Both the position numbers and the translations under genes were made by a program. A stretch of DNA of 64,000 nucleotides from Raillietiella orientalis (Eukaryota), in NCBI GenBank assembly GCA_036172245.1, contig JAYWIR010000088.1, positions 124,001 through 188,000 on the forward strand. The letters run 5' to 3'. The notes beneath the pieces are model-generated. The model was not told the origin of the DNA. It made no database searches and saw nothing but the letters and a program-made list of their open reading frames with translations. Positions 14,927 to 64,000 of this stretch are shown here, piece by piece (the first letter of the stretch is position 1; each line of letters starts with the position of its first letter).

Positions 14927-15069
14927 TCGTGCAGTGCTATGGCAACCCAAGTAGAAACAAGCCCAGCATCGTGTCTCGGGTGTTGGGGGAGGCGGGGTGA
15001 GCGGGAAACCGGGTGCGCGGAATTCGTTCTGCGGGCATAGAAGTTTTCTTCAGGACGAACAAGGAAGAA

Positions 15070-23834: not shown

Positions 23835-25875
<2,041 letters not shown>

Positions 25876-26018
25876 TCGTGCAGTGCTATGGCAACCCAAG
25901 TAGAAACAAGCCCAGCATCGTGTCTCGGGTGTTGGGGGAGGCGGGGTGAGCGGGAAACCGGGTGCGCGGAATTCGTTCTGCGGGCATAGAAGTTTTCTTC
26001 AGGACGAACAAGGAAGAA

Positions 26019-32079: not shown

Positions 32080-32500
32080 GGAATTCGATACTCAGATATC
32101 CATTGAATATGTACATACACTATTGAATGCAATGAACGCATATATTTATTCTTATAATTTCAGTAATACAATGAACAACTCATTAATTATGCTACTAAAT
32201 CTGTGTGTCGGTATATTATTACCATCTATAATGTATGTTAACAGCTAATAATAAGCATATATGTAAAAAAAAATTTGTATATCAATCTACTTACGAATGT
32301 ATTTTATTATATTTGATAAGCACGTAGTTTTTATAATCTTTCATACCATGAATTAATGAAATGCATGTTAATACGTATACACGTTTAAATAAGATTACTG
32401 TGAAACATATGTATGTTAATAAATATGAATAACTATGTATATAAAAATAAATTTGTACATTCATTTGTGTAGTAGAAGCATGAATATTTATTTCATGATC
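32080..32500. repeat. Very AT-rich low-complexity tract containing the duplication end point
   Basis: Abrupt A/T-rich stretch; its first part is shared with 21120-21310. Confidence 0.6.
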
Positions 32501-35608: not shown

Positions 35609-38600
35609 ATGAAAAAATGCAGCGTGTGCAGCGAGGAGTCCAAATTTTGCTGTAGCTCCTGCAAGAATGTTTGGTACTGCTGCAAAGAGCACCAGCGTTC
35701 CGACTGGAAGAAGCACAAGAAAGACTGCATCACGTTCCGAGTAGAGCTGAACGAGGCAGAAGGCCGCTATCTGGTCGCCTCCCGCAACCTGAAGGCGGGC
35801 AGCCTGGTGCTGATAGACGAGCCGCTCATTATATGGCGGCCTTCCGGGTCAGCTTACTGCCTGGGGTGCATGCTAGCAATCCCAGTCGTGAGCCACCGCT
35901 GCAGAAGCTGTGGCTGGCCGCTTTGCAGTCCCGGCTGCGAGTCCAGTGCCCTCCATCAGCCCGAGTGCCAGCTGTTCGTCAGCCACGGCGTGCGGAATTT
36001 GGACTCGTTCACTCTGGAGGACTACTGGATGATCTCTCTGCTGCGCGCCCTGGCGCTGAAGCAGCAGGATCCTGACAAGTGGGAACTGTTCCTGGCCACA
36101 AGGAAGTCCCTGCAAGTGACGGAGGAGTTTTTCGATTCCTGGAAGCGCAAACTCCGAAGGTTCTATTCGTTCTTCCCCGAGCACGAGTTTCCCGAAGAGG
36201 TCGTCTTCACGATCTGGCTCATCCAGCACTTCAGCAGCATCGAGTGCGCCCCCGTCCTGGATCGCGGCGCGTTGATGAAGTGCGTTTTCTCGTACGGGTC
36301 CCTCTTCGAGCACAGCTGCTTCCCGAACTGCGAGTTCTACATCCAGGACTACAACAGGACCCACTTCCTCTGTGTGACCGACGTGAAGCGCAATGAACAC
36401 CTGCACATCAGCTACGTCAACATTCTGCTGCCGACCAGGCACCGCCGGAAGCATCTTCTGGTCTTCAAGGGCCTCATTTGCCAATGCAGGCGCTGCCAGG
36501 ATCCGACGGAGTTGGGCTCCCACATGGGGTCCATCAGGTGCATCAAGTGCACGTCGGGGTACCTGATGCCTACGAACTGTTCGTCGATGGACACCGATTA
36601 CAAGTGCGGGAAGTGCAGGGCGTTCTCCAAGGAGTCCTACGTGGAAGAGGTTGACGAGTCTTTGGGCAAATCGCTCAAGAAACTCAACCAGGTAATCTTC
36701 CTGGGCGGGCGGGGAGCTTCTGCCGACATCATCATCTGGCGATCGCTGCAGCCCAGCGGTCCCCAAGAAGTCCGCCAAATGTTCCTGGAAAACAAGATCG
36801 GCAATCTGAGGGAATTTATCCGGATCGCCTCCGCCTACGTCCACCCTCATCACTACCTGATCCTGCAGTCGCTGCTCTACATGGAGTCCTTGTGCTTCTC
36901 GCTGATAGACTTCCGCCTGCTGAGAACCGACGAACTGGCCGAGGTGTCCAAGGCCTGCGCGACACTGATAGAGATTGGGCGGATGATCCAGCCAGGTACA
37001 CAGGGAGCTCTTCGCGCCCCAATTGACACACGTCCGTACGCACCCACACGCCGCCGCCGCCTGACGGCAGGAAAGGTGTTGGCGGCCGCTCTTCCCGGCA
37101 GCGTGGCGGAAAGGTGGTCAGCCGGGATGGGCTGCTTCGACTCCTCGCTGCTCGCCGAACGGGCGCTTGAAGACGCGCTCAGGGTGGGAGCTGGACCGTG
37201 AACGGCGCCTTCGCAAAACGCGATCCTCCACGGAAACCTTCCGCGCCCGCGTGGCACCGAGAGCTGCGGGTTCGAATCCCTTCCCCACAACATGACGCTA
37301 GTTGACCTGGAGACTTCCGGTGCTGCACCGATGGAAGTCGGAAACCCCCGCATGCCCCCGTTGACTGGCTCTACGGAGTCCTTCCAGAAACCACGGATTG
37401 CCCTCCAGAAGTGCATCGCGCACTGTGGAGCTGGCTGGATATCCCCCTTGGGGGGGGGGGGGGGGTCACCCCTTCAAAGTGTTAAGAAGCGCGCTGCTCC
37501 GTAAGGGGTTCTCTCCAAAGGGTAAACTATGGGTGGTTTCCTTACAGGTTCTCTCCGGAGAAGGAATTCGGGAGCATAACCCTCCCAGGTGGTCCCTCAG
37601 GAGAGGATGCGGAGAAGAGGTTTCCTTCACGGTTCCCCCCCGAGAGTAAGAGGAAGGAACTCCTTCCTCCGGCACCTTCCTGGATTCGTTAGACACCACC
37701 CCTAACCTTAGGGTGGGTGGCTCGGACAGTGTTAAAGGGTTTTGTCTTCCCCTCCCCCCCTTCCCGAGGAGACTAGCGGTTCTTCAGCACTCCTTGAAAA
37801 CTCTTTGAAAACCAAAACTCCTTGAAACAAGGACCATCTCCTCTAAAGCCACCCTCCGCATTACCCCGAGCTGCCGCCTTTCTGCCTTAAAGCGATTCTT
37901 CGGATCCGCTGACTTTCGCGCGTCCGAGCGTGCCCCATAGGTTCCCACGAAAATTTTTGCTTTCTCCTGCCCTGCCGACATCTTCCCTGACCCTGCCCGC
38001 AGCCGTCCGTACTCGCGGATACCACCTTGACTTTCCCACAGATTTTTGTTTCGTTTTCCTCTTTTCTCTCCGACAGGAGTCGATCGGTACGGCCTCATTT
38101 TGGAACTGAAGCAGAGCCTCTACGAAAGCATGCGGCTGATCCTGCTGCAGAGGGAAGAAACGCAGTCCGTCAGCTCTCTCGGCACTCAGGTGATGAGATC
38201 AAAAGCCCAGGGGGGCGAGCGGTGGGTTGGATGGGGGGGAGGAACCATCGACACCCTAAAGGGGAAGACCCCCCTCAGAGTGGTCAAGCTTGGAGCGCTC
38301 CTCCCCGGGAGCGGTCCCGCATCTGCCCGAATCCCCTTGAAACGCGTTCCGCTTCCGGGAGCGCGTCCCGGAGCTCCTGGAGTGGACGCTAGCCCTGACG
38401 CATAAAGAGGCGAGACCGTCTGCCACCTCCGAAGGCGTGGCGGACGCGTTCGAGGCATCCCTTCCTCCTTCTGCGGCGGAACGCACCCCAGCGCTAGAGG
38501 TCAGCGCGACTCTTCCGCCGAGGTCGCCATGGGTGGCCGTCTTGCAGCCTCGCGCGAGAGCATGGGAGTTCCACGCGGTGGGGCGCCTGTTTCTCTAAAT

Positions 38601-40489: not shown

Positions 40490-43400
40490 GGAGTGAGTTT
40501 ATTCGGTACACATAACTTGTACACGAATGTACAACACGCACACACTTGGCCAACTATTCCGAAGCAGCATCGATGGCAATACCACGCGGCGGCACTTTTT
40601 CGGGATTTCGTCCCTAGGGCCAAGGAACAATCTTTTTCTGAGATGCAGCCGCACGTCCTAATACCGGGATCGGCCGGATTCCTGAGGTCCATCTCCCTTC
40701 GGTTGAGTCCTCTCAAGATGGTCTATGGAAGGACATGGCCCTTTTCCTTGCCTTTACCTTCCGATAGCCACATTAAGCTTGTGACGAAGAGGGCGACGGC
40801 TACTCTCGCAGCGGCATCATAGAAGCCAGGAGGGTCGTCGGCGTTGTCCCCTTCGAACGATCCCACCGGCATTTCCCATCCTTGTGCCTCTGCTTCTTCA
40901 GCTCTCCCAGGCCGTAGAGCATCATGGGGCAGGGGAGCACGTGGAGCCGGATTTCCTTGGCCCTGTGCACCGTGTACAGCTCGTTCGGACTGTCTCCCGT
41001 CCACTGATGGATCCTCGATCTACTCGGGATTCTTCCTCGGCGGGAAGACGCGAGGAGGAATTCCGATGGGCAGGTCGCTCCTCCGGACTGTCAGTCCAAC
41101 CGCTCGCGGATTCGTAAACGGCCGGAATCCGTGGTGAGAACTTCCTTATTCCTGGAAACGGATTCCCGGAGATCCTTCCCCGCCATTCCCGGAGCCGCAC
41201 GAGGTTTCCCTGATTCGTCCACGCAGCTTCTCGTGTCTCGTGGGTGGGTGAGACGTCCGGTGCTCTTTTCCCACACGATCGGGTGAGTCGCATTTTCCTT
41301 GGCACCCACAGTCGCCAACGCTCACATTCCCGGATGATCTACCGGAACCTTTGGTATATTCGTAGTTGCCCAGGAGGGAAGGAAGCCAGGACTCACCAAG
41401 GCTGGTCCTTCGCTCCAGATTTCTCCGCTGCTAGGCGCTCGATTTCAAACTGGCGGGTCCTTACCGGTGCCTGCTGCCTCCTCCGGCTGCGGTCGACGCG
41501 TACGCATGAACCGCCTGGGGCTAACATCAGGCCATTAGACTTCCAGCTTCGAGTAAGCTCTGCACCCCGCGAATGGCCACCTCTGCCGGCCCTCGGTGGG
41601 TTCCAGGAGTTGCCCGCTGCGCGTCCATGCAGTTCGCACGGAATGTCCCAATGGCTCCGTCCCGGTTCCTCCGCCTTCTCGCGGAAGGCTTAAAAGTTGG
41701 AGCTTCGCCCTGGACTTAAATTCTCTTCAGAAAATCTCCCTCCGTTCCACTTCTAGAGCGGTCGGTCCCGTCCATTGGGCGGAAAGCCGTTCCGCGGGAC
41801 ACCCAGGGAAGGAGTTCCCCGCTGCACAAGAAGTTCCTCCTCCTCCTTCCAAGTCTCCGCAGGTGTATTCTCTGATCTTCCTCGGAACAATTTCCTCCCA
41901 AAAGATCTGCGAAGCCGGGGCTTTGCTACGTGGGTTTTCAGGTCCCTACGTGGTCGAGAGCTCGACATCGTTCCTTCTTCGATAATGCAAAGAGGTCCAG
42001 AGTTCTGACGCATCCAAGTCGTTCCACGGTGATCTTAAGAGCTTTTGGTTGTCTTCTTCCTCCAGCTTCCATGCGCTTTCACGTACTAAAATTTGCAGTG
42101 TGAATACTGAGCCAAACTCCAGGCAAAGGGAAGCCAGCAGTAGCTGAGCATCCTCTGACTGTCAGCGTGGCCAAGTGGCGCGTGTGGAAGATACCTGAGG
42201 AACCGCATGGCGTTGTTCTCCAAGACCGGCGTTGCGGTTGCCGTCTTAACAAGATGCCTTGCCAAGGCGGTGTCCATCTTGCAAATTTTGAAGGAGCGCG
42301 TGCGAGGCTTCTCTTGGATCGAAATCCTCCCGTGTGCGAGACAAGATCGCATGGACTGCTTCTCGAGACGGGCCACTGTCTCTGTCGACGTGCAAGAATG
42401 CAAGATCGGCTGCAGACTCCATGGTTCAGCGAAAATTGAAGAATCGAGTGGCAAGGAACTTCGGTTGGCATTTCCGAATCCGAACCTGCGTTGAACCAAC
42501 TCCACCTAACGGTTTATTCCTGTCATCTCTGCGTCTTCCCGGTGACGGGAATGACGTGGCTGACCTGGAAAGAGATTCAAAGAGCTTGATCCGGCAAGTA
42601 ACCGCGTCTCTTGTGTCCTACCGGAAAGCGTGCAGCGACCTCTTCGCATGGATCTCTTCGGCGGATGGATCCACGAGGCATTCATTTTCACCTCTTTCTC
42701 GAAGAGTGAAACTGCAAACAGGCAACTCAGATTCCTCGTGTTTCAAGGATTCGAGGATAGCGAGCTTCAGGTGCCTTGGAAACCGCAAAGTCCGCTCTAC
42801 CGGAATTCAAATCGGTCATTCCAAGAAAAAAAGAAAAAAATTTGAGCGAAACTCTTGCAAAGACCTTCAGAAGGGCAGGAGACGCCTTTGCTCGCATCGT
42901 GTCGCCTACCTCCAACAGAGCCGTTCGGTGCGCCCTGAAGCCCATTGAACGGCTCTGTCAGTGGCTTCATGGTTCAGCCGATGCACAGAAACTCACTTGG
43001 GGAATCAGCCAACAGCTTTTCCAATGCATAGTCAGAGTCCTCTTCCACATTCGCATTCCTCCTTCCCAGATTCTCTCTCTTTTGTCCGCACAACGTGCAG
43101 CTTTCCGTGTGATCAACCCGTCAGCGCTAACGCAAAAAAAAGGGGAAGGGGTGGGAGAGGAGAGGGAAGGGAGGCTCTGGAAGAGTTCGAAACTGACGGG
43201 TGCAGGGCTTTGCAGGAGACACAACGTAAGGCCCTGGACGAGGATCGTACGAATAACCCTTCGACCGGTTCCCCGACGGCCTGCGGTTTCATGTAGAACA
43301 GGGAAACAAGCACGTTTTTGGCGCCAATCGGAGTTCCTAGTCCAAGGGAGTTGCCCTTCCTGGAAATGCTCGTGTCCTCTTTTCGTGCGTCCTCTTGTGG

Positions 43401-48693: not shown

Positions 48694-51329
48694 GACTGCT
48701 AGTCTACTGTGTTGATCTGCAAACATTATTCACATTGGGAACAGATTTTAGACTGGGGATTATTGATAAGCCTCAACTTCAGAGAAGAGAATAACGAAGT
48801 GGAACAGTTGGCTCAAGATTTGCGAAAGCTGAAAGTCTTAAATTTTAAACCGCTGTTGGAGTAAACGATACATTTGCAATCTCAGCAGGAACATGAGGTG
48901 AAACAACGCAAAAGGAAGAGGAGTGAAAAAGGAAAGAAAAAAAAAAAACCTCCTTATCTGCATTTACTCTTATATGTTTGGTTTAGAAATGCAAATATAA
49001 AACGTTTTGAAGGAGAGCTGATAAGGACAGATTCGCATGAATTCGCGAGATTTCATAATTGAGACGAGCATGTTTACATATAGGTAATGCGGATGTGTTG
49101 AAATCTTTAAAAAACAGGACGAGGAAAAGCTTCAGGGAAAATGAGAACTCTTCCTTGAAACCTTTAGAGTTCGGCGTTCTCCTTTGACATCTGATGACCT
49201 TATAAAGCCCCTAGCGATAGACGTCCCGAAATCAAACAAGATGACAGAGGAAAACAGAATAAGCATTAGAGCATTCGATATATTCGTTGTTTATTTGTGG
49301 CCTTCAGATTGCTGCCACCGTCGAGTACATTCATAGAGTTTTCAGGCGAATAATTTTGGCTGCCGTTTCCAACTGCTCATCATGGCTCACTGAATGGTCA
49401 GAACCGTGGCATTCGTTTCCTGGGTACATTCTGAAGGCAGAGACCATGGAATCCAACCTCGACATTTCAATGTGCAAAACGGCCAAATGAATTGTCCGTC
49501 CGAGGTGGACTTCCCAGATCAAACAAAAAGTGGAGTTCCATTTTTACAAAGTAATATGTAAGGCGGTGTTTGTTGCCCTGTCTGCGGTTTGGGAGTCTCC
49601 TGGGGGAAAAAAAAATTCCGGGAGTGGAAGGTGAGTCCAGAAGTTCCGACGCTGGAAATGCCACCGTGTTGTACTTGCCTGTTTCCCCCCTTTTGGGTGT
49701 ACATGTAATCAGATTGGTGTAGTTCCTGTGTTGCTCTGTACGTTCCTTCGAGGGAAACCGATTAAGCCTTGGCTTTTTACGTGCACACGGCTGCTCTCTG
49801 TGCTCGGTTTTTTGGCACTTGTTTTTGTTTGTTTGCTTGGAGTCGGTACAAATGAGGTATGTGAGCTTGCTCGTTTTCCTAACTGTTGGGTGATTCGTGT
49901 ACAATGAGTCATGGGAATCGGCATTTTTTTCTTTTTCTTTTGAAAGCACGATGGTTCAAGGCAGACAACTTCATGAATTTCGAATGTGAGTTTTTGTGTG
50001 ACATTCTCTTAAAGAGAGCAGAGATGTATAACGACACAGGAGCATATATCGCAGAAGTAGGAAAATTTTCGTTCGATAATTCAGCCATTGGCTTGCTTGT
50101 TTATATTGAATTTTCAAAAAGATAATGTAAGAAGAAAAAAAAAATGCAGAGTTGTAAAGAACTGAGTAATGCTAGGGTGAATGTCATCCCCTAAAAGGGC
50201 TTTACACGAATGATTCGCTCAGTTCAGATCTAGAAAGAGCTCATTTATGAGAAGTGGTTTTCTGATTGCAAAACCAGCGCTGTCCATTTCCAAGAGTCTC
50301 ACAACAGTTTTTCATAAATCTTTTTGGTAATTGGATCATTTTGATTCCCCAACTGATTTTCCAGTTCTCCAGTGCAAAGACCTCAAGTTTAACCAAATGA
50401 CGAGATTCACATGTTTTATTGAGTGCGCCGTTGTTGAAAGGTCCAATATTTTTTTTTAACATTGATAGCGTTCAGATTCCATCCTGTTTGAATAAAAGGA
50501 GTTCTGCATATTTCGCCTAAGGAGCAGTTCCTGTTTTCTTTTTTTTTCCATGTTGCATGAGTAGTTTATTCTTGATTTGGGGGTTTGGAATATTTTAGAA
50601 TCAATAACACTAGATCAGATGTTGGAAAGACTTGTCAAGGATTCTATTATATGAGCTTACTAATTACTAATTTTTAAGAGAAAGCACGTGTTTGATTTTG
50701 ATAGTATTCCTGCTAGCAAATGAGCATGAGTCCTTGAATCATATGTAGTGACCAAAATTTCTGTCACATGTAGCTTATGTGTGCATTTTGCTCGGATGTT
50801 TCTATACCCATCCTGTTTCCTGTTTACTTGGCATTTCTCCTTAGTTAAGAAAAAAATGGTCAAGAAAAAATGCAATTCCATTTTTTCTGAATTGAATTGA
50901 CAATAAGCTTTCTTGAATAGTTATGAATGACAGTCAAATTCTTGATTGCAAGTTTCGTGATGTCTTAGGCATGTTTTAAATCAAAGTCTCTTAGGCATGT
51001 TCTAAATCAAAAAGTGGCATGAGTTTTTCCAATGTAAAGTATCTGGACAAAGATTTTTGATGAAATGCCTCCACTATAATTGCAATAGCAGCAGTCATGT
51101 ATTTCTTGAAGGTAGAATATGTGAATGTAAACTAACATCTAGGAAATAAATGGTTTTGAAAAGGCAGGTGTGCCACTGTCACTTTGTTTATTTAGCATTA
51201 TGATTTGTTGTAATTGGATTTCAGTAAAGCATGTTACAGAACAAACAGCTCATAAAAAGCTTGGAATCTATTGAAACAAGTAAAATATATTGAAAGCTCA
51301 TTCATTAATGTATTTTTAGTATAGAAAGC

Positions 51330-54300
51330 ATGGATATTAAAAAAGAAGAATTGACATGGAATGCTCTTGAAAACACCAAAGAATCAGATAGTTTTGATGC
51401 ACTTCACTCAAGTAATGAATCTTTAAGCTCTGATTCAAAAAATTCTTATTCCCTGGAATCCAAGCATGAGGAAGATTCTATTAGTAATGGAAAAGTACTT
51501 CAATCCCTAGCAAAGACTCAGCACAGTTCTGGTTCCCTTTGTCAACGAAGTGGACTCCCTACTGTAGACAATAAGTTTTTAGGCAAGTTGCTTCATGTAA
51601 GTATGTTTCATGTATTTAATTCTGTCCTCTTTCCAACTGTTCCATTTCTATGCCCATTTAAAGGGTGCATCTCTTTATATTGATCTAATATTCTTCAAAT
51701 GTACTCCATCATTGCATCATCCCTGGTGGCTTGAAAAGAAAGCATGTTTTGTAATTATGTTTTTGGTGAATTTTGTAAAAGTAGTATATGCTTTCTGTTG
51801 TCTTTTTGACAAGTAAAATACATCAAGGATGATTTCATGTAATCATAAATGGAAGTTGATTGTTACTCATTATTTTAATTTATTCCATAATAAACTTGCA
51901 TTACTCTGAGCTTTGAGTGAATATTTGTTTATTCTGTATAGTTTAAGTGATATTGATAAGTGATAAAGATTTTCGTAATCTCCAAATCATCTATTAAGTA
52001 GTTTTGTATTCTTATTTCAAAATTGTGTTCACATGATCATAATAACTGTTTTAGTGTTTAAGTTCCATATGCCCATTTTATTTTGAGAGGGCACTTCTGT
52101 TAGCTATTTTGAAGCACATGGCTTTGGAATATCAAATAAGTTAACAATAAGGCATTTGGGACAGAAATAAGTAAAATTTTACTTTCAAGTGATTCTTTGG
52201 TTTTCAGTCAGCTTTAGGTTTAAAAGCAGATTATCAGTTATCGTGAGAAGATTGATTTGTCCCCTAGCACATTTGTAAATAAACTAATTTAATTTCTGTA
52301 ATCTCGATGCTGTACTTTTTAATTCTGGGTAGACTTTATTACAGTCCAAAATGTTTTGAAATATTGGTATGGTTTTCTATGTATACTTTTGGCAATCCTC
52401 AATATGAATTAGGAATCATACAAAAAAAATTGCCACATCCCAGGACTTGTATGTCTGTTTATGTGTGTCTAAAAGTGTTCCTTAATTATAAATCATAATG
52501 CATTCTAGTATTAATCCTGAAATCCCTCAAGATATTTGCATGCCAAGCTGCAATGGATACTCTATTTTATTTACATATTAGTCATTGGTCACTTTGATTT
52601 TTATTGAGTCATGAAATTAAGTGTCTCGTGCTGTGTGTCACTGCAGTAGATGCTCTCCAGCAGTTATCTGTTTCATCACTTGACCACAAATGATAAAAGG
52701 CGTACCGGAAGTTGAAAATTGTGCACAAATTCAGCACATCGGATGTTTCCATGATTGTTGTTTGCATTTATAGTAAGCTTCTATCGATAGATTTGTGATA
52801 GACACACTGCATCACCACGAAAAGTATTTGCTGTTGATTCACTGATCATTAGTTCTGACTGACCATGAGTTTGAATATGTTTGTGTTGGAATTAGGTTTT
52901 TGATATTTTTCAATGCTCGTTCGTGTTCAATGTGGAAGATACAAATTGAGTAACACACAGATAATTGGAGATGTAAAGAAGAAAGAATTCTTTAATGCAC
53001 ACCTATTTAGTACTTGTGTGTGTCGGTGTCAGAGTCCTGGTTAAAGATTCTTTATTTCTGTTCAAGAAACATGAAGTATGGTGATTTGTGGATGCTATTT
53101 ATAAAATTTGTTTCTTTTTCCCGATTTTTCAACGATAAATGAATTAGATTTATTGAGGGTTTCCAATTTTCCGAAGTGCTGAAAAATTTTTCAGCTGAAT
53201 GTGATTCCATACTTAATAAATCAAATTTGTGTATTTGTATTTGTGCTTGTTTGTTCATTTCATTTCATTGATGCCATGGTAAAACATTGGGATTATTATT
53301 AATGTGTTGGTGTTTTCTATTTTGGTGTGCTGAATCAGTGGTCGTATAGTGGTTTGAGTGTATATTTTTCATAGCTTTTATTCCATAATCATGATTTTAT
53401 TCCATAACTCCATGTTTTATTATATACATAATTGTTCATTTGGACTTTCATGAATATGTACAACATAGAAGTAGCTTGTTTTATGTTTTTGCATATTTTT
53501 TTTTATTGAAAACTAATGTATTTCAAGGATCCAAGTGATGGGATATCCCGGATGGAAGAGATGCATTTTTTGAAAGGAGAAAAAGGCCAAGGATCAGCTT
53601 GTGATGTAAATTACCTTTGTCCATATCTGGGCCCAATTCGAGGGACTTTGACTGTTACTAACTACAGATTACATTTTTGGAGCCTTGATAGAGATCCATG
53701 TTTTGTATTAGAGGTTCCTCTTGGAATGGTAACTTTATTTATTTTGACTTGTGATGAACCTCTTATACAGATCAGCCGTATAGAAAAAGTAGGTGGTGTT
53801 AATAGCCGAGGTGAAAATGCTTATGGTATTAAATTATTCTGCAAGGACATCCGTAATCTGAAGTTTGCCCATGGACAGGTTTGACTGTTGCAAATAGGAT
53901 AAAGAATGATAATTCTGTAAAGGAAAATCATAGTAGGCGATCAGTCTTTGAAAAGCTACAACAGTTTGCATTTCCCTTGAGTCATAGTTTACCATTATTT
54001 GCATTTCAATTGCAAGAAGAATTTTCTGAGAATGGATGGTCAGTATATGAACCAATAATGGAGTTTCGGCGCCAAGGATTACCAACTGAAAGCTGGCGGA
54101 TAACTAGGATCAATGACTCTTTTGATGTATGCGATAGTTATCCTGCTGTGTGGGCTGTACCATCAGGGGCTACTGATGATGACTTAAGAACAGTTGCTGG
54201 ATTTCGTAGACGGGGGCGCTTGCCAGTTTTATCATGGATGCATCCTGAGAGTCATGCAGCAGTTGTACGTTCTGCACAACCTCTTGTAGGTGTTGCTGGG

Positions 54301-55345
54301 AAACGCTGCAAAGAAGATGAACGTTATTTGCAACTTATTTTGGATGCTAATGCTCAGAGTCATAAAATTTACATTATGGATGCACGTCCCAGGTAAGAAA
54401 ATTGGAATAAAAGTCTTGACTTTTCGTAGTGTATATGCTGTGGCCAATAAGGCAAAGGGTGGTGGTTATGAAGGTGAAGAAGCGTATCCTAATGCAGAGC
54501 TGATCTTCCTTGATATTTACAATATTCATGTTATGCGGGAAAGCTTGCGGAAGCTGAAAGAAATTTGCTTCCCTGGAGCCACCAGTGAACCCCGCTGGTT
54601 AACACGAGTAGCATCAACCCACTGGCTGGATCATATTAGATGCATTCTTGCTGGAGCAGTGAAGCTTGTAGAGCGTGTGGAAAACGGGAAGGCTTCTGTG
54701 TTGGTTCATTGTTCTGATGGTTGGGATCGCACTACACAGTTAACTGCGCTTGCATTGCTCTTACTGGATCCATATTACCGTACTCTGCGTGGCTTTGAAG
54801 TTCTTCTGGAAAAAGAATGGCTAAGTTTTGGTCACAGATTTGCACAGCGTATTGGACATGGGGAGGATAAACATTCAGATGCAGAGCGATCACCAGTTTT
54901 TCTGCAATTTATGGACTGTGTGTGGCAGGTGTACAAGCAGTTTCCTTGTGCCCTGGAATTTAATGAGCAACTGCTTATCACCATATTAGACCACACCTGT
55001 TCTTGTTTATTTGGAACATTCCTGAATAATAGCGAACGTGAACGTGTGCGCGATAATGTGCGACAGCGTACTGTATCTCTTTGGTCAATGATTAATGCTT
55101 CCCCACGAGAATTTCTTAATCCCTTATACTGGTCTCATCGTCGTGTGTTATTCCCTGTACCCAGTATGCGTTATATTCGACTCTGGACTAGTTATTATTG
55201 TCGGTGGAATCCGTATTTGCAACCACAAGAACCGTTGACAGTACGAGCTCAGGAATTGTTAACTTTGCGCTCTCAGTTGACGCTAAAGTTAGAGGAATTA
55301 AGATTAGCACAAGCAAATTGTGGGAGGACAGGCATAACTCCTTGA
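51330..55345 (+). CDS. MTMR2: Myotubularin-family phosphoinositide 3-phosphatase (MTM1/MTMR1/MTMR2 group). Exons 51330-51596, 53528-53728, 53771-53878, 53923-54392, 54430-55345
   Basis: PH-GRAM ([26 protein letters not shown]), [12 protein letters not shown], intact catalytic [21 protein letters not shown] and a C-terminal coiled coil; introns of 42, 44 and 37 nt. Exon 1 assignment is less certain. Confidence 0.95.
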
Positions 55346-55384
55346 TCTTGAATGTAATAAATACGTGTTATAGGAAGTTTAATT
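55346..55384 (+). promoter_or_regulatory. 39-nt intergenic spacer containing a poly(A) signal (55356-55361) and a 3' splice acceptor-like TTATAG (AG at 55372-55373)
   Basis: TGA-tcttgaatgt-AATAAA-tacgtgttatAG-gaagtttaatt-ATG. Confidence 0.7.
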
Positions 55385-56606
<1,222 letters not shown>

Positions 56607-57721
56607 TTAATGCAAATAAATAATAAATGTTTTTATTTTACAACATATAGCGCTAGAACACCTTGTTAGGTAGTAAGGTCACAAAACTGAATATGTGAAT
56701 GACATAAAACAATTGCTCTTCCATTTTTCAATTCTCCTTAAATGCTGGTGTTGTGCATGAGAGAAATCAGAAGAGAATGGAAATCAGAAAAATTATCTAC
56801 GCTACAGATAGGTGGTTTTCCTTGGCCATCCCTAAAATTGTAGCATTAATGTGAAAAACATTTACTTGCATGGAGCATGAAGCACACACCTTTGATATCC
56901 TGAACCAAGTGCCACTGCTTTGAACTTCTTTTTGAGACAGGATTGTCTACATTATTTGCTAGTACAGAATTCATGCAGAATTTATCACTTGTGCAATCTA
57001 TGACGAGAATTTCTCTGCTTTCTCCATGTGAGGGTGCAGAAGCCCTCTGCAGATAAACCTTCTAAAGGTTGCTTTCAGTTGGCATTTATAGTACCCATTT
57101 ATGGTTTTTCTTGTACAAACTTTGAAACGAAATTCTGTATTACAAGTACACCTGTAAATTTCAGTTGAATACATATGTGAAGGTATACGACATCTTTGAA
57201 ACTGTTTCTCACCAGAGCCATTCTTATTAGAAAGATTTTCACATACCCAAGCACCTATTTTTCAGTTCACTCCTTCCAAATACATGTAGTAATACAAACT
57301 TTGTAAATACATATCCAGATTTCTTATCCAGTAAAAATCGTAACCTTATTTTAATTTACATAATGTCAGAAGATTTTACTTTATAAATTTTTAAAAGGAA
57401 AAGTGTTTGAACTATAATTGCTTTATTGAATTTTTCTTGAAAATGCATTGTTTAGAGTTAACATGAAAGATATTTTTATAAACATCCATAATCGCATTAG
57501 TAAAGCAATTTTATTGATAACAATGCAATTGTTCTGCATTTTTTTCTCATAGTGCATGCTCAAATGAACTAGAAACTAGAGCATTCAATGGCCTGGATGG
57601 TCTTGCAATGAAAATTCAAATTTGTATCACCCCTTTACGCATATTTGTAAGGAAGAAACACAAGCTACAGAAACAGCATCTCCACTTCTATTTGAAGAAC
57701 AATTCTCAGAGAACCACCATT

Positions 57722-60700
57722 TCATAGTTTGGCAGGGGGCCAACTTATTGCACATTCTGCATGTAAACACTGTGGGAGCCACTCACAAAATTCCTTCAAA
57801 AGATCTAGAATGAGAAAAAAAAATTGTACATAATTTCACACTATTGTTTTATTTTATATACAATATTCAAATATGATGCTTACATTGTGAATCAGTCCTC
57901 CACTTATTATGAAGTGATGCTCTATCTCGAATGTCTTCTTCGACTAAACATTTCAACAATTTCTGAGTTCGTGGTAGCAGTTTGGCCCAACTTTTTCTCA
58001 TAGTTACTGGAGAACTCAGCAAAACTGACACATATTTTCCCAGAATTGGGAATACTTTGCCTTCTAATAGGAACTGGGCAAACCAACGATATGCATGCAG
58101 ATTATTTGGGTACTCTATTTCTTTTATTGGTAGCTTCCACCCCATTTTGTCTAAGGATATGGCTTAAGTCTAGCAAATAATATGAACTCTTGCATACCGA
58201 ATGTCACATTCACATGACAAACAACCTTTCCTGTTTTGTCATCAAAACGTGGAGCAGGATTTTCTAGTGGTTCTGATACTTGACACATTGTGGGTGCAAA
58301 CTGATGAATCCAACAAGCTTCTATAGCTACAATGCCTAAGCAACCAATTAAGAACCATTTATTTACGACAAACCTTTCATGTATAGTCTATCTGATTCTA
58401 TTATTTCAGAAAAGATTATGTATGGAGGTTGATACCTTCTCAACACAGAAGATGGATGAATGAAGACAAGTTTATCTACAAGGGTGCACTGATAAGCACC
58501 CTTCCATTTGCTGGGATCTTCCATTTTATTTATTTCACTTTCATCCAAAAGATGAGCAACATGATCAACATGACCAGATAAGAGCAGCTGCCTCAGTAGT
58601 TTGCAATGCATATCATCTGGAGGCTGCGAATTTAAGGTTTCAGACAAAAGCTGAGAATCTTTCAAGATTAAATTAATTTCTCTAACGAGCTGTAAACGCA
58701 ATTTTCGTATTTCTAATAAAGCCTTCAATCTTAATCCATGTTGATCTGCAAATTCCTGGCAATTAGATGAACATTCTGCTTCTAATACAGCTCTCAGAAC
58801 AACTGCTGAATCTCCAAGCTGTAAACTATGCCCCCTTCCAGCCCAGGACATGTATTTTTGTCTCAGATTTTGCCTTTCTTGCTCCTTTTCCTTTGAATCA
58901 CTTGGCAGCTGTAAGAACAGTTCTCTCACACTGAGAGCGGCCACCAAACAAATGCTGTATGGTAGCAAGTCATGCTGATTACTAAGCACAAGTAATTTTG
59001 CATAACGTGGTGCAACTGGAAAAGCAGCCATGGCTTTACCTAAAGTGGTTAATCGCCCACTCAACTCTTCTGGAGCAAAGTTGATTGAAAAATATTCCAA
59101 TAAACTTTTTGGTACCTTGACAAACAGGTTCAGCTGAATTGGAACAAACTTCCAAGGCACCAAGATGCAATAGTCTCCTCTCTCCTTCTTGTAACTGATT
59201 GACATCAGGAGGAGTAGGAAATGGAAAATGAATGACTTTGTCAATGTTCATAGCTTTCATTTGTAAAATAAGGTCATCAATAGGTCGACAACAGATCTCT
59301 GGCATGTGGAAATCAACAAAACCAGTAAATACTGCTGAAGAATACAATCTAGATCAGTAAAGCATATGCAGATCACTCAAAAAAACCTCTCCTACCTGTA
59401 ACAATGTCCAGGGCTTAGTCTTCCTGCTCTTCCAGCCCTCTGATCAGCTGATGCTTTGCTAGTGAATTTAATCTGGAAAGTAGAGATTCCAGTTACATTA
59501 TCAAATACACGGGCTTTGTATCTGCCAGTGTCCACCACGTATTTTACATTGGGAATGGTTAATGACGTTTCAGCTACATTAGTAGCCACCACACATAGGC
59601 GACATCCATCTGGTGGAGCAATAAATACCTAAAAAACCTTAAACTTTATGTTGCATTGTTTTTCCCCTTACTTTTTGTTGCATATGAGCTGGAAGCAATG
59701 AATACAAAGGCAGGACATACAGCGGCTCAAGAGTCATCTCTCCATGATTTACATTTTCAATTTCTTCATTCAAATCAACATCAGATCCAAAATCCTTCTC
59801 GTCACCTTCTTCTTCTTGCAGTGGTAAAGTAGCATAACTGATTAGTGTTGAAGCAATCAGCTCAGTCACTCTTACTCATCGAGACTGATGGAAGGAAGAA
59901 TTTCTTTTGACAGCTTGGTTTTTTTGTGATGGTCAGCTCGTTTTTTCTTCATCAACAAAGTTTGCGATTTAGTGTCCTCATTTCTTTCTACTGATTTATG
60001 CAAAGGGAATGTAGCTTGAAGTTTTTTACAAAGTGCATTCACTTCCTGTTGAGCTAAACGGCTGTTCAATCAAAGTAACTAAATCATATTCACCGGTGAC
60101 AAAAACAAGGATGCCACCTGCTGGCAACTGAGCATGAATTTTGCACACCTTGTGATAAGCAGCTAAAACATAATTATCTGCAGTCCTCCTACTGAAATGG
60201 ATGGTCACTGGAAACTGGCGACTCTCTACCTGTAACTAAATTTGATTCTGTCGTATCATTTCATGACTCACCTTAATCACTTGTGGAGATACATGGAAAA
60301 GACGCTGATTGTTTGTAAAATCGGCAAGGCGCAATGTAGCTGACATAATTATCAGTTTCAAAGGATCTTGTTTTTTGCGTCGTAGTGGCACAATCCGAGA
60401 CAGTAGTCCAATTAAGATATCAGTATACATGCTTCGTTCATGTGCCTCATCCAGTATTACAGCAGAATAGCTGGTCAACAGGAAATCCTACACAACATAA
60501 GTATCTGAATGAAAAAACTAATTTACTTTTTCAATTTCCCTCAACAAGATTCCATCAGTCATAAATTTAATTTTTGTTTTTGGAGTAGTGTTTCCTTCAA
60601 AACGAATCTGGTAAGATACTTCATCAGAGGTGAGGTTCATCTCATGTACTACCCTCTGAGACATGGTGATGGCTGCAACCCTTCGTGGTTCTGTGATAGC

Positions 60701-61929
60701 TATCTGCCGATTGCTACAAACAATATGGGACTAAAAAACGTATCCGCTCACTTACATACAATATCCAGCTTCATAAAGAAATTGAGGAACTTGTGTGGTT
60801 TTGCCACTACCAGTTTCTCCAGCAATTATGATTATATCATTTTCAGCAAGAGCTTCCATGATAGTTTGTTCTTCGGCTAAAACAGGAAGTTTCAAACGTG
60901 CTTCTTGCACTTCTGCTTTTCTAGAGACAGGCACGAATGTGGCTGGTTTTGTTTTTTCAGCAGGTATCTTCACACATGAAACCTTGGCATCTGCAGTTGC
61001 TACCAAATTGCTTTTACATGATTCATTCAACAAAACTTCTGAAGAATCCATCTTTTGATTCTGAACTGGAGAGGTGCGAGAGACATTATGATCCAAAGTC
61101 AGATCTTGACTGAATGAGTTAAACTGTGATGAAAGGTCATCATTTGTGAATTCAGTACCATCAAAATCATCTGACTGATTTAAATCCTGAAGTGTTTGTT
61201 AGTGAGAGCATGGGACAAAAATATGTTTACTTTCACTTTCATTTCAGCTTTATTTGATTGCAGAGTTTTGGATTTTTTCATCCTCCTGTGAGCTTTGCAA
61301 GTGCTGCTTGAAGGTTTTTGTTGCTTCATAAAAACAGGACCATTATCTTTACCATATAAGCTTTTGAATTTTCTTTTCCCAATGGTTTGAACACATATTG
61401 TGGGTGTGTATTTGCATGTCTCCTCTGTTTTCACCTCAACTTCCGATAGAAGTTTCAGAAGATGTGATCTCTAAATGTAAAATGTGAATGTTTAATGAAA
61501 AATACTTCAGAAAAAAACAATATCAGTATAAGCTGAGCAAATACTTTGAAAAATATTTACATTTTCCTTTTTCAATTTCTGATCCCTCTTCTTTTCCAGA
61601 AGTTTTCTCTGTTTCTTTGTGAGCATTCTAACCTTTTTTGGGGGGGGGCTCGCATTCCTCTGAACAGACTTAGAGGCTGGTAACATGAATAAGTTACTTG
61701 AATCATACTGTTCCTCCCTTATTGGAAGTTCATGCTGCACAATATCCTGATAAATCATTTTAACATGACAACACAGTCCATAACATCACATGCAATAAAA
61801 ATATAATTACATAATTAAAAATACTAATAACAGATATTCTAAAAAGCGTACTTTCGGCTTTGAAAGTGATGTGCATGTTAAATCAGAGTCCATAAGAAAT
61901 CTTTTACTCCTTTTCCTTTTTCTGGGCAT
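57722..61929 (-). CDS. DHX37: DEAH-box RNA helicase DHX37 (kurz/Dhr1), multi-exon
   Basis: [73 protein letters not shown]2/OB regions and the C-terminal [14 protein letters not shown]; first exon 61929-61852 (MPRKRKRSK); many short introns. Confidence 0.95.
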
Positions 61930-64000
61930 TTTTACAGTCTTTGTCTTTTAGCTAAGATTCCTCAAAATAGGTTACAGTACACCATTCAAGGATTAGATAT
62001 ACTTATGACTGATGTCCACAGTGCATTTTCCCTGAAAAATACCACAAATTCACTGACAAACACTGATCAATCATTGACGATCAAATATCTCTCGTCTTGA
62101 TTTTATTCTTTTGGAGACTCCCAATTCCCAATCAACCTCATTGCAATAATCAACGGGTCAGCTGCATGATTTCCTGACAAAAAGTTTTATGCATAAGAAT
62201 ATTTTCTGAAGCAGTAACGCAACCGTCCTTGTCATAAAGGTGTATTCAATTCGACAATTGATATGAATATGTATCCGAATTCGACCAAAATAAATTAGAA
62301 ACGGGTTTTACGTACGAAGCTTGATCGGGTTATCTTCCTCGCAGAAAACCCAAAGGGGAAAAACCCGTCTGAACCCGAGCTTCCGTGGCTACAATTTAAA
62401 TTCAGGCAAGAGCAACTCGCTACAAGAACAATCTACTTGGACATTGACAATGCCATCAACTTGTTAAGAACACGTGCACCGCTCTTTCGCAGGGTTCCCC
62501 ATTCCTTGCGAACCGCACGCCAGTTTCCGTCAGTCTAATGGTCTTTTTCCGAGATTTCACCAGTTCCATCAACATTGTCCATTCGGAATCGAATCATTGC
62601 TTGCTCCAGGTTATTTGGAAGCTATCGGTGATCTCAATGTTTTGAAATGAGATTTCGAAGTTTTAATTTTTTAATCTCGAAAAACCGACTTCGACCTCGA
62701 TTAATTGTAAATTTCTAATCCAGGAATTCAAGCTTGTTCATTTATTCATCGAAAGGATGAAAAATTACTCAAGCGTCTATCAAACTTTTAATGGCCACTG
62801 CTCCCTTTCTTCGATGATGGCAATCAATATTCACATCATAAAAAACACAGCAGTCGCTTTTTCTTTATCACGTGTTTAGTTGATATATAGAAGCACAACA
62901 TGAACCATTTTGCTAACGGTCTTTTCCTCTCTTCCTGTTTTTTGTTGGTAAAATGCCTGTTAGTAATATATGAATTCTGAAGGCACCACTAAAGTACACA
63001 ACTGTCCAGTTTGGTTACTTCAAATAGAACGAAATTGTTCCAACATATATGAAAAATATAGTGCTGTTGGATATAAGGTCAGTAATTCCAGCCATATATT
63101 TTTTAATATTTGCATCTGTTGCTAATTTGTTCAGGTCCATTCATCTGAATTTGTGGAGATTTTCGCTATTGCAGAACGCTATTGCTATGACGTATTTTAT
63201 TTTATTTTACCCCTTTTATTTCTGTTGATCACTGCACTAAATTGAGTCTGATTTGATGCAATGTCATGCGTCATTCCAACACATATTGAAGATACAGCTA
63301 CTTCTTTAATTATTTTGAACTTCTCTAGTTCCTCTTATTTATTTTTCCGATTTTTCCGTCACCTGAATTAGTTCATATAATTGCATTCTACTGTGTTTGT
63401 AAGGAAGGAATAATTATGATCCAAGGTACAATAACAATCATATGCAAGCAGACTTCATTGCTGTTCTCGCATAGACAAGAATACTGTTTTTACAATTTCA
63501 ATTAGATCCTTTTTCTGATAAACGAACTAATTTTATGATAACTTCCGAACGGTAGGGTAATGAGTACGCCCTGTATTTGCAACTGCTTCAGAAATTGATC
63601 TCCAATGCAACTACTCTTTCTTCTTTAGTGAGAAAATGAGCATCTTAGAAGGTTTTTTTCATTCCATTCGAAATTATGAATAATCAATTAATTGATCCAG
63701 TGAATCAGTGTCTACATCACACAAAACCTTTGATAAATTTGAAATAATTAATGCTTTCGAAGAAGAATTGTATGTTGGTAACACGGAAAAAAGAACACTG
63801 CTGGTATCCGGCTGTTGGATTGCGGGCGGCTTGTTGTGCACGTGCCTCGAAAATGTGCGTTTGTCGGAAAGAACGTTCATAGATCCTAGAAAGAAAACTC
63901 ACAAGTAAGTGTTCCCAACATTGGTATCCGGCATTTGGAGATTAAGTGTATTTGCAGGAATTCAGTTTTTTTAAAAGTTTTTTGTTACTTAATGTATGAA

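What the first reader, a model, noticed from the sequence alone, without database searches (positions are those of the whole stretch)
55340..55390. Operon-like junction: HEN1 begins 39 nt after the myotubularin stop, with poly(A) signal and splice acceptor superimposed
Seen: co-directional genes separated by 39 nt that hold AATAAA (55356-61) and an acceptor-like TTATAG 11 nt before the HEN1 ATG, leaving no room for a promoter. The upstream cleavage site expected 10-25 nt after AATAAA would fall on that AG. Established: this geometry resembles nematode operons in which 3'-end formation and spliced-leader (SL) trans-splicing sites coincide, and SL trans-splicing is known in some crustaceans. The myotubularin donors (phases 0,0,0,2) cannot join this acceptor in frame, so a simple fusion protein is excluded. 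Inference: polycistronic transcription resolved by trans-splicing, or a shared distant 5' UTR exon, would couple a small-RNA methyltransferase to a lipid phosphatase locus.
Basis: partly seen in the sequence, partly recalled or inferred. Interest (0 to 1): 0.8.

Follow-up and report, generated by a model that had tools for sequence, protein, structure and literature searches.

The report
Two genes 39 bases apart
A lipid-phosphatase gene ends only 39 bases before a small-RNA methyltransferase gene begins, with a poly(A) signal and a good splice-acceptor site between them, which looks like an animal operon but could not be proven without RNA data.

Summary
A 653-aa MTMR2-like myotubularin ends with TGA at 55343-45. 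AATAAA lies at 55356-61 and TTATAG at 55368-73. A 334-aa HEN1 methyltransferase starts at ATG 55385.

The AG at 55373 is more than a chance YAG. On an acceptor matrix built from 22 introns modelled in this window it scores in the 94th-99.6th percentile of about 1700 other AGs. It beats 16-21 of 22 real acceptors. The AATAAA is the only + strand copy between the myotubularin stop and the HEN1 stop.

The mechanism stays open. No genome is held, no RNA run was listed and no close relative was found. My odds:
- Shared transcript resolved by spliced-leader trans-splicing: about 0.35. This matches the operons without intercistronic DNA of Ciona and the C. elegans SL1 type.
- HEN1 start site inside the last myotubularin exon: about 0.35. 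That splits as 0.22 with a short 5'UTR intron and 0.13 unspliced. It is supported by a 186-nt ATG-free run and a good donor at 55288.
- Distant cis exon: about 0.15.
- Unresolved dicistronic mRNA or a fusion isoform: about 0.08.

Two first-reader statements are too strong. A promoter can lie in the upstream exon. Cryptic phase-1 donors (54474, 54720, 55164) would give in-frame fusions.

The organism is a fast-evolving animal, probably a pancrustacean, with 37-48-nt introns.

The parts
51330..55345 (+). MTMR2-like myotubularin CDS of 653 aa in 5 exons: 51330-51596, 53528-53728, 53771-53878, 53923-54392 and 54430-55345.
   Evidence: Pfam GRAM and Myotub-related match. tblastn of three orthologues reaches the C-terminus. 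The joined model has no internal stop.
55343..55345 (+). Myotubularin stop codon TGA.
   Evidence: The Strigamia orthologue aligns to within 10 residues of its own end.
55356..55361 (+). AATAAA, the presumed poly(A) signal of the myotubularin mRNA.
   Evidence: It is the only + strand AATAAA between the myotubularin stop and the HEN1 stop. It lies 10 nt after the stop. HEN1's own AATAAA lies 8 nt after its stop.
55350..55373 (+). Acceptor region: TAAT branch-like motif, TTATAG, AG at 55372-73.
   Evidence: Matrix score 9.57 bits, 94.4th-99.6th percentile of non-annotated AGs, above 16-21 of 22 real acceptors.
55374..55384 (+). 11-nt leader between the acceptor and the HEN1 ATG. It contains no ATG.
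55385..56606 (+). HEN1 small-RNA 2'-O-methyltransferase CDS of 334 aa in 6 exons: 55385-55474, 55519-55772, 55821-56003, 56044-56211, 56256-56456 and 56498-56606.
   Evidence: Model built. Exon 3 matches PDB Hen1. blastp against 49 HEN1 hits.
55385..55400 (+). G/U-rich stretch (ATGGTTGAGTTTGATC) placed where a downstream element of the myotubularin poly(A) site would lie. This is an inference.
   Evidence: Read from the sequence. Not tested.
55169..55351 (+). ATG-free run at the end of the myotubularin CDS, a possible HEN1 5'UTR if HEN1 starts inside this exon.
   Evidence: The gap between ATGs is 186 nt, the longest of 16 gaps. P is about 0.02 at the exon's own ATG density.
55288..55373 (+). 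Candidate 86-nt cis intron (donor AAA|GTTAGAGG). It would remove the stop, the AATAAA and the ATG-TAA mini-ORF from a HEN1 transcript.
   Evidence: The donor is at the 97.2th percentile. Such a donor within 36-110 nt is found by chance for about 12% of strong AGs.
55164..55164 (+). Cryptic phase-1 donor (CCA|GTATGCGT). Joined to 55374 it gives an in-frame myotubularin-HEN1 fusion (...[18 protein letters not shown]).
   Evidence: Donor percentile 98.3.
51280..51319 (+). Candidate 40-nt intron in the myotubularin 5'UTR. Its acceptor AG at 51319 lies 10 nt before ATG 51330.
   Evidence: Acceptor at the 97.6th percentile and donor at the 96.9th. The length matches the local intron mode.
56615..56627 (+). 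HEN1 poly(A) signals: two AATAAA copies.

Best explanation
The two genes form one transcription unit driven from the myotubularin promoter. RNA polymerase reads through the 39-nt spacer. On some precursor molecules, cleavage and polyadenylation directed by AATAAA (55356-61) make the myotubularin mRNA end at about 55372-55386. On others, a spliced leader is trans-spliced onto the AG at 55373. This gives a capped HEN1 mRNA with an 11-nt leader before its ATG.

Because the poly(A) site and the acceptor coincide, each precursor can yield one mRNA or the other. This is the arrangement proposed for Ciona operons and C. elegans SL1-type operons.

Shown here: the geometry, the quality of the acceptor, and the uniqueness of the poly(A) signal. 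Inferred: read-through transcription, the existence of a spliced leader in this organism, and its use at this site.
For: - Stop-to-ATG distance is 39 nt on one strand.
- The AG at 55373 is in the 94.4th-99.6th percentile of about 1700 non-annotated AGs and better than 16-21 of 22 local acceptors.
- AATAAA at 55356 is the only + strand copy between the two stops. It sits 10 nt after the stop, as HEN1's own sits 8 nt after its stop. The upstream mRNA should therefore end within a few bases of the acceptor.
- The gap is an outlier locally. The first myotubularin intron is 1931 nt. About 0.85 kb separates the presumed HEN1 and DHX37 3' ends: stops at 56606 and 57722, last AATAAA copies at 56622-27 and 57510-15.
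- In Ciona, same-strand gaps under 100 nt were 9.2% when the downstream gene is trans-spliced and under 1.1% otherwise. The upstream 3' end abuts the acceptor (PMC1488885, passages read).
- C. elegans henn-1 lies in operon CEOP3488 (PMC3330095, methods passage).
- Copepod SL mRNAs have 17-24-nt 5'UTRs after the leader (PMC4664967, passage). That is compatible with 11 nt here.
Against: - No RNA evidence of any kind was available.
- No SL RNA gene was found: there were 0 Rfam matches in the window, and an Sm-like motif at 19097/30041 did not fold better than shuffles (z +0.55).
- The organism is unidentified. If it is a pancrustacean (weak support), trans-splicing is known there only in copepods and amphipods, and operons are not reported in them (PMC7986045, background passage).
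- 16 of 18 Ciona operons, and Oikopleura operons, lack AATAAA upstream of the junction (PMC1488885). Here a canonical signal is present, which would compete with trans-splicing.
- The 186-nt ATG-free run before the spacer (P about 0.02-0.06) has no explanation under this model.
- A good cis donor exists 86 nt upstream.
- The myotubularin gene's own pre-ATG acceptor has a well-placed cis donor forming a 40-nt intron. Acceptors just before ATGs therefore need not mean trans-splicing in this genome.
- The acceptor matrix rests on introns I modelled by homology, not on transcripts.
Confidence: 0.35

Rival explanations
1. HEN1 has its own transcription start inside the last myotubularin coding exon, roughly 55170-55285. 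A short non-coding first exon is cis-spliced from the donor at 55288 to the acceptor at 55373. This 86-nt intron removes the myotubularin stop, the AATAAA and the ATG-TAA mini-ORF. The two transcription units overlap.
For: - The strong acceptor is explained.
- The donor AAA|GTTAGAGG is at the 97.2th percentile and better than 12 of 22 real donors.
- Introns of 84-105 nt exist locally.
- The ATG-free run 55169-55351 covers the whole putative first exon, and the only upstream ATG (55352) falls in the putative intron.
- The myotubularin gene appears to have the same design: a 40-nt 5'UTR intron ending 10 nt before its ATG.
Against: - It needs a promoter inside a conserved coding exon. No convincing core-promoter motif was seen by eye, only TCAGTT at 55273 and TATATT at 55172. 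That was not a formal test.
- A donor this good within 36-110 nt occurs by chance for about 12% of strong AGs (5 of 42).
- The ATG-free run is a post hoc observation.
Confidence: 0.22
2. HEN1 starts inside the end of the myotubularin exon or in the spacer and is not spliced upstream of its ATG. The TTATAG is a chance look-alike.
For: - The ATG-free run.
- The single upstream ATG at 55352 is followed at once by TAA, a harmless start-stop.
- With a matrix limited to -9..0 the AG falls to the 94.4th percentile. With two AGs in the spacer, chance is then about 0.1.
Against: Five of six matrix spans put the AG at or above the 98.5th percentile. The transcript would carry a canonical AATAAA 24 nt before its ATG.
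Confidence: 0.13
3. The acceptor at 55373 is cis-spliced to a distant upstream exon. Candidates are the non-coding myotubularin leader exon (donor 51280 or 51168), which would mean a shared promoter with alternative splicing, or an unrecognised HEN1 exon in the 1931-nt first intron. If coding, that exon must end in phase 1.
For: - The strong acceptor.
- Good donors at 51280 (96.9th percentile) and 51168 (99.3th).
- The first myotubularin intron is 1931 nt in a locus where 19 of 22 introns are 37-48 nt.
- In the 39 of 49 HEN1 hits where a PP[LVIAMT][YFHW] motif was found in the first 200 residues, it starts at residue 18 or later (16 or more residues before the conserved F). In the window the PP starts at residue 6. 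Most Hymenoptera and Coleoptera rows begin with a hydrophobic MIIVLFH-like segment.
- No stop lies between the acceptor and the ATG.
Against: - No upstream exon resembling orthologue N-termini was found. The one MILFH candidate at 53391 gives TGA at the junction.
- It would need a 2-4-kb intron spanning strong internal acceptors.
- The four constitutive coding donors give immediate stops.
Confidence: 0.15
4. The genes are expressed as an unresolved dicistronic mRNA, or as a myotubularin-HEN1 fusion isoform through a cryptic phase-1 donor (54474, 54720 or 55164).
For: The three cryptic donors give open fusions. 55164 is at the 98.3th percentile. Read-through past 55356 would end at the HEN1 signals at 56615/56622.
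Against: - A canonical AATAAA lies between the ORFs.
- Reinitiation after a 653-codon ORF is inefficient (established knowledge).
- A fusion would delete conserved myotubularin C-terminal sequence.
- No fusion protein was found among 120 myotubularin hits or 49 HEN1 hits, or in 80 metagenome loci.
- About one donor in three is in phase 1 by chance.
Confidence: 0.08

Closest known systems
Ciona intestinalis SL-resolved operons without intercistronic DNA (Satou et al. 2006, PMC1488885; passages read)
   Same: Two same-strand genes. The upstream mRNA 3' end would fall on the acceptor AG of the downstream gene. There is no room for an intergenic promoter. The locus is dicistronic.
   Different: 16 of 18 Ciona operons lack AATAAA within 40 nt of the junction, whereas a canonical AATAAA sits 11 nt before the AG here. 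In Ciona the leader and the dicistronic cDNAs were seen. Here nothing at RNA level was available.
C. elegans SL1-type operons, as described in PMC1488885 and PMC7986045 passages. The primary paper was not read.
   Same: The poly(A) site of the upstream gene is adjacent to the trans-splice site of the downstream gene.
   Different: This is a minor class in a phylum with proven SL RNAs. The local acceptors here are mostly TAG (13 of 22) and not the nematode TTTCAG type. The nematode consensus is recalled, not taken from a call.
C. elegans henn-1 in operon CEOP3488 (Billi et al. 2012, PMC3330095; methods passage read)
   Same: A HEN1 orthologue expressed as a non-first gene of an operon from an upstream gene's promoter.
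   Different: The upstream gene there is C30A5.3. No link to a myotubularin is stated, and the lineage is unrelated.
Oikopleura dioica operons (figures quoted in PMC1488885 and PMC7986045; primary paper not held)
   Same: Very short introns and intercistronic regions of 23-30 nt. A 60-nt cut-off is used to call operons.
   Different: The upstream cistrons lack AATAAA. It is a tunicate, not an arthropod-like lineage.
Overlapping or nested same-strand genes with a shared leader exon, such as the cholinergic locus (recalled, no call)
   Same: A downstream ORF reached by alternative splicing from an upstream non-coding exon.
   Different: Here the skipped region would be a whole gene with four introns and its own poly(A) signal.

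Membership tests
SL-resolved operon without intercistronic DNA (Ciona / C. elegans SL1 type) | Adjacent genes on one strand with a gap far below the usual intergenic distance | tested here: met
   39 nt from stop to ATG. Other local gaps are about 0.85 kb or more. No genome-wide distribution was available.
SL-resolved operon without intercistronic DNA (Ciona / C. elegans SL1 type) | A competent, unpaired 3' splice site just upstream of the downstream ORF | tested here: inconclusive
   Competence is supported: 94.4th-99.6th percentile. 'Unpaired' is not settled, because candidate cis donors exist at 55288 and 55164.
SL-resolved operon without intercistronic DNA (Ciona / C. elegans SL1 type) | Downstream mRNA carries a non-genomic spliced leader at that site | not testable with these tools
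   No RNA data could be examined for this locus.
SL-resolved operon without intercistronic DNA (Ciona / C. elegans SL1 type) | The organism has SL RNA genes (donor plus Sm site) | tested here: inconclusive
   0 Rfam matches in 64 kb. One Sm-like motif was rejected by folding. The rest of the genome is not held.
SL-resolved operon without intercistronic DNA (Ciona / C. elegans SL1 type) | Upstream mRNA 3' end abuts the acceptor | not testable with these tools
   Only inferred, from AATAAA lying 11 nt before the AG.
SL-resolved operon without intercistronic DNA (Ciona / C. elegans SL1 type) | Dicistronic precursor RNA exists | not testable with these tools
   No RNA data.
HEN1 / HENMT1 small-RNA 2'-O-methyltransferase | Homology across the methyltransferase domain, including the FxPPLYxQRY N-terminal motif, SAM motif I and the TPN...RHxDHxFEW segment | tested here: met
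   Exon 3 matches Hen1/HENMT1 chains at E 2e-12 to 4e-11. Exon 2 matches weakly (E 0.07-0.17). blastp of the model against 49 hits gives best E 4e-56 at 30-42% identity over 210 or more residues. The motifs are visible. Pfam on single exons gave 0 families. The spliced protein was not scanned.
Myotubularin (MTMR1/2-type active phosphatase) | GRAM domain, myotubularin phosphatase domain and the CX5R active-site loop | tested here: met
   PF02893 at E 5.6e-10. PF06602 at E 1.2e-42 and 1.1e-93. [10 protein letters not shown] is present. Identity to MTMR2 of many animals is 61-71%.
Unresolved dicistronic gene (Drosophila type; definition recalled) | Both ORFs on one mature mRNA with no poly(A) signal between them | tested here: not met
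   A canonical AATAAA lies between the ORFs. RNA was not examined.

The most novel reading that the evidence does not exclude
This is a true operon in a pancrustacean arthropod. A myotubularin and the piRNA/siRNA methyltransferase HEN1 are transcribed together and separated by spliced-leader trans-splicing at a site that doubles as the upstream poly(A) site. The passage I read (PMC7986045) says operons have not been reported in copepods or amphipods. My search for 'operons' + 'spliced leader' + 'crustacean' listed no paper, by title or abstract start, reporting one. It would also be a second, independent case of HEN1 placed in an operon, after C. elegans henn-1.
Probability: 0.3. Interest if true: 0.65.

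Novelty: new member of a known kind. Interest (0 to 1): 0.45.

Why it matters
If the junction is an SL-resolved operon, it extends operons to an arthropod-like lineage where none are described in the literature I could search. It would also tie expression of a germline small-RNA protecting enzyme to a housekeeping lipid phosphatase.

If HEN1 instead starts inside the upstream coding exon, the locus is an example of extreme gene packing. It would combine 37-48-nt introns, 3' UTRs of about 30 nt, and a promoter embedded in coding sequence.

Either way the locus gives a precise, cheap test site for whether this organism trans-splices: one RACE or long-read experiment at 55374.

Tried and rejected
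- RNA evidence: no RNA holder was listed for window 53400-57000, so read laying could not be used.
- Whole genome: none is held. No histogram of intergenic distances and no genome-wide SL RNA search were possible.
- Rfam: 0 matches in the window at gathering thresholds.
- Earlier scan notes: nothing on this genome or on look-alike stretches. One unrelated rotifer note was returned.
- Relatives:
  - The best myotubularin identity in 5.8 billion proteins was 61-71%.
  - In the metagenome contig scan, 80 loci were kept. The best was 72% identical, and 0 of 80 hold HEN1.
  - GTDB genome contigs: 20 pattern matches, 0 confirmed.
  - No comparative test of the junction was therefore possible.
- Fusion proteins: 0 of 120 myotubularin hits contain HEN1, and 0 of 49 HEN1 hits contain myotubularin.
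- Upstream HEN1 coding exon:
  - tblastn of orthologue N-termini found only the known exon 1.
  - The regex hit MILFH at 53391 gives TGA at the only phase-1 donor.
  - An alternate-frame ORF at 54317-54392, which uses the real donor at 54393 in phase 1, would add a hydrophobic 25-aa N-terminus. I regard it as a chance open frame and did not test it.
- SL RNA-like motif (GT...TAATTTTGG at 19097 and its duplicate at 30041): folding energy was no better than shuffles (z +0.55, 134 of 200 shuffles as good).
- Protein Atlas on HEN1 exon 2: only generic bacterial methyltransferase fragments, with no taxon hint.
- The Oikopleura primary paper is not held.
- The spliced HEN1 protein could not be given to the family, structure or homology tools, so only single exons were scanned there.
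Full report
OBSERVATION.
- The upstream ORF ends ...CGRTGITP with TGA at 55343-45.
- The spacer 55346-55384 is 39 nt.
- AATAAA is at 55356-61.
- TTATAG is at 55368-73, with its AG at 55372-73.
- 11 nt follow the AG before ATG 55385.
- In the HEN1 frame a TAA at 55358-60 closes the reading frame upstream. ATG 55385 is therefore the first usable start unless an exon is spliced on at 55374.
- The split codon at the acceptor is G|GA, so a coding upstream exon would have to end in phase 1.

GENE IDENTITIES AND MODELS.

Myotubularin:
- Pfam finds GRAM (E 5.6e-10) and the myotubularin phosphatase domain (E 1.2e-42 and 1.1e-93) in the three larger exons.
- The active-site loop [10 protein letters not shown] is present.
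- The last exon is 61-71% identical to MTMR2 of many animals.
- Guided by tblastn of three orthologues, I modelled five exons giving 653 aa with no internal stop.
- The Strigamia orthologue aligns to within 10 residues of its own end, so the stop is genuine.

HEN1:
- I modelled six exons giving 334 aa.
- Exon 3 matches solved bacterial Hen1 and human HENMT1 chains at E 2e-12 to 4e-11.
- The model matches all 49 HEN1 hits in a local blastp, with best E 4e-56.
- The spliced protein itself could not be passed to the family or homology tools, so those searches used single exons. Single HEN1 exons gave no Pfam family.

Third gene:
- A minus-strand gene runs from ATG 61929 to a stop at 57722. It is DHX37, with E 8e-52 to human DHX37.

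INTRONS AND SPLICE-SITE STATISTICS.
- All 22 introns I modelled in the three genes are GT-AG.
- 19 of 22 are 37-48 nt. The others are 90, 105 and 1931 nt.
- A 23rd intron of 84 nt was seen later and is not in the matrix.
- Acceptors are TAG in 13, CAG in 7 and AAG in 2.

From these 22 sites I built donor and acceptor matrices. I scored every other AG or GT on both strands of 49-64 kb.
- The AG at 55373 scores 9.57 bits. This is the 99.6th percentile of 1700 non-annotated AGs and above 21 of 22 real acceptors scored leave-one-out.
- Over six matrix spans and pseudocounts it stays between the 94.4th and 99.6th percentile, and above 16-21 of 22 real sites.
- The spacer contains only one other AG (55377), which scores at the 3rd-30th percentile.
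- The chance of such a site in the spacer is about 0.01 with the wider matrices and about 0.1 with the narrowest.
- Caveat: the matrix rests on my homology-based models, not on transcripts.

3'-END SIGNALS.
- On the + strand of 49-64 kb, AATAAA occurs 14 times.
- Between the myotubularin stop and the HEN1 stop it occurs only at 55356.
- It starts 10 nt after the stop. HEN1's own first AATAAA starts 8 nt after its stop. DHX37's first lies about 206 nt after its stop.
- Cleavage 10-25 nt after the hexamer would fall at about 55372-55386, on the AG and the HEN1 ATG.
- The G/U-rich run ATGGTTGAGTTTGATC (55385-55400) sits where a downstream element would be. This is an inference.

WHAT SPEAKS FOR OTHER MECHANISMS.

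(a) Candidate cis donors lie upstream of 55373 within the last exon.
- 55288 would give an 86-nt intron. It is at the 97.2th percentile.
- 55164 would give a 210-nt intron. It is at the 98.3th percentile.
- Among 50 non-annotated strong AGs, 13 have a strong donor within 36-110 nt. After removing 5 that use real donors and the 3 sites at issue, the background is 5 of 42, about 12%. The 55288 donor is therefore not significant by itself.

(b) An ATG-free run of 186 nt lies between the ATGs at 55166 and 55352.
- It is the longest of 16 gaps in the last exon plus spacer.
- P is about 0.02 at the exon's ATG density, or about 0.06 as 'the last of 16 gaps is the longest'.
- The single ATG at 55352 is followed directly by TAA and lies inside the putative 86-nt intron.
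- This fits a HEN1 5'UTR that begins inside the myotubularin exon.
- It has no explanation under trans-splicing. It is a post hoc observation in a coiled-coil coding region.

(c) The myotubularin gene has its own strong AG at 51319, 10 nt before its ATG.
- The AG is at the 97.6th percentile.
- A donor 40 nt upstream (51280) is at the 96.9th percentile.
- The spacing equals the local intron mode, and I estimate the chance at about 0.02.
- Short 5'UTR introns ending just before the ATG may therefore be a habit of this genome. That weakens the acceptor as evidence for a spliced leader.
- DHX37 has only weaker candidates: AG 61952 at the 77.6th percentile and donor 62002 at the 89.7th.

(d) Fusions.
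- The four constitutive donors have phases 0,0,0,2.
- The cryptic phase-1 donors at 54474, 54720 and 55164 give open fusions such as ...[18 protein letters not shown].
- 55320 and 54918 give TGA at the junction.

(e) HEN1 N-terminus.
- A PP[LVIAMT][YFHW] motif was found in the first 200 residues of 39 of the 49 HEN1 hits. In all 39 it starts at residue 18 or later, which leaves 16 or more residues before the conserved F.
- Most Hymenoptera and Coleoptera rows begin with a hydrophobic MIIVLFH-like segment about 60 residues upstream.
- In the window the PP starts at residue 6.
- I found no such exon in the window, but short hydrophobic exons are hard to detect.

THE ORGANISM.
- No close relative exists in the protein collections.
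- In a tree of the myotubularin exon the window sits on a very long branch (0.97 against a median of 0.12). It is weakly joined to Daphnia and Artemia (SH-aLRT 85).
- A GC-rich single-exon SMYD ORF has SmydA-8-like of a wasp as its best hit, at 26% identity.
- For a 231-aa DHX37 exon, 6 of the 10 best representatives carry names: an amphipod, a cricket, a copepod, an abalone, an ostracod and a mosquito.
- The DHX37 tree places the window inside a weakly supported group (SH-aLRT 83) that holds all pancrustacean rows. That group excludes mites, a spider, molluscs, an annelid and nematodes.
- I read this as 'fast-evolving animal, probably a pancrustacean'. The class is unresolved.

COMPARISON WITH WHAT IS KNOWN.

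Ciona (PMC1488885, passages):
- Operons lack intercistronic DNA. The upstream 3' end abuts the downstream acceptor.
- Same-strand gaps under 100 nt were 9.2% when the downstream gene is trans-spliced and under 1.1% in the other classes.
- The authors argue that each precursor yields one mRNA or the other.
- 16 of 18 Ciona operons, and Oikopleura operons, lack AATAAA near the junction. Here a canonical one is present.

Other lineages:
- A minor C. elegans class, the SL1-type operons, has the same juxtaposition (same paper and PMC7986045).
- PMC7986045 (background passage) states that SL trans-splicing occurs in rotifers, copepods and amphipods, but operons have not been reported there.
- My searches listed no paper, by title or abstract start, reporting crustacean operons. 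The one Parhyale genome passage on 'polycistronic' concerns a microRNA cluster.
- Calanoid copepod SL mRNAs have 17-24-nt 5'UTRs after the leader (PMC4664967).
- C. elegans henn-1 lies in operon CEOP3488 (PMC3330095 methods).
- A compact animal genome can lack operons altogether. Dimorphilus, with a median intron of 66 nt, is an example (PMC7854359 passages).
- In chaetognaths 18% of genes are in operons defined by gaps under 250 bp plus SL reads (PMC12460157 passages).

VERDICT. The geometry is that of an operon whose poly(A) site and trans-splice site coincide. The same sequence is about equally well explained by a HEN1 start site inside the upstream exon. Nothing at RNA level, and no sister genome, could be brought to bear.

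My odds:
- SL-resolved operon: 0.35.
- Internal start with a short 5'UTR intron: 0.22.
- Internal start, unspliced: 0.13.
- Distant cis exon: 0.15.
- Dicistronic mRNA or fusion: 0.08.
- Something else: the remainder.

One RACE or long-read experiment at 55374 would decide.

Noticed in passing
window 1-48700 versus 50000-64000: There is a sharp change of composition. GC is about 0.49-0.60 over the first 48 kb and 0.33-0.42 over the last 14 kb, with a ragged transition at 47.5-50 kb. The GC-rich part is gene-poor and lacks the AT-rich style of splice and poly(A) signals. Whether this is an isochore-like boundary or an assembly join was not tested.
   Followed up: partly
window 11133-21137 and 22079-32091: An 11-kb tandem segmental duplication at 98-100% identity, with spacing of about 10,950 nt. 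A third, 85% identical piece lies at 40679-40970. It is not rDNA, since there are 0 Rfam matches.
   Followed up: partly
window 1-1152 (-), 13080-14751 (+), 24059-25700 (+): Three cathepsin-L-like gene copies (I29 propeptide and Peptidase_C1 pieces). Two of them lie inside the duplicated 11-kb units.
   Followed up: no
window 35609-37201 (+): A single-exon 530-aa MYND+SET (SMYD) ORF. Its best hit is SmydA-8-like of a parasitoid wasp at only 26% identity. A long pyrimidine tract plus AG lies 27-40 nt before its ATG.
   Followed up: partly
window 51300-61900, three genes: The introns are extremely short: 19 of 22 modelled introns are 37-48 nt. Acceptors are mostly TAG (13), with two AAG acceptors in the myotubularin gene. 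This is shorter than the medians of 57-67 nt quoted for Capitella, Dimorphilus and Strigamia (PMC7854359).
   Followed up: yes
window 51195 (+): This is the highest-scoring non-annotated acceptor of the AT-rich part (10.8 bits). It lies 135 nt upstream of the myotubularin ATG and 84 nt before the donor at 51280. The 84-nt stretch holds two ATGs, so its use as a 5'UTR exon is doubtful.
   Followed up: no
window 54290-54392 (+), alternate frame of myotubularin exon 4: The frame of the last exon stays open back through the 37-nt intron into exon 4. It encodes a hydrophobic [25 protein letters not shown]. In this frame the real donor at 54393 is in phase 1 and would join HEN1 in frame. Probably a chance open frame.
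   Followed up: no
window 57722-61929 (-): A DHX37/kurz-type DEAH helicase gene with at least 14 introns lies convergent with HEN1. The presumed 3' ends of the two genes are about 0.85 kb apart.
   Followed up: yes
proteins P0122-P0165: Most HEN1 proteins of Hymenoptera and Coleoptera share a hydrophobic N-terminal segment (MIIVLFH.../MLIIFHY...) about 60 residues before the FxPPxYxQRY motif. It looks like a membrane anchor. It is absent from the window's model.
   Followed up: partly
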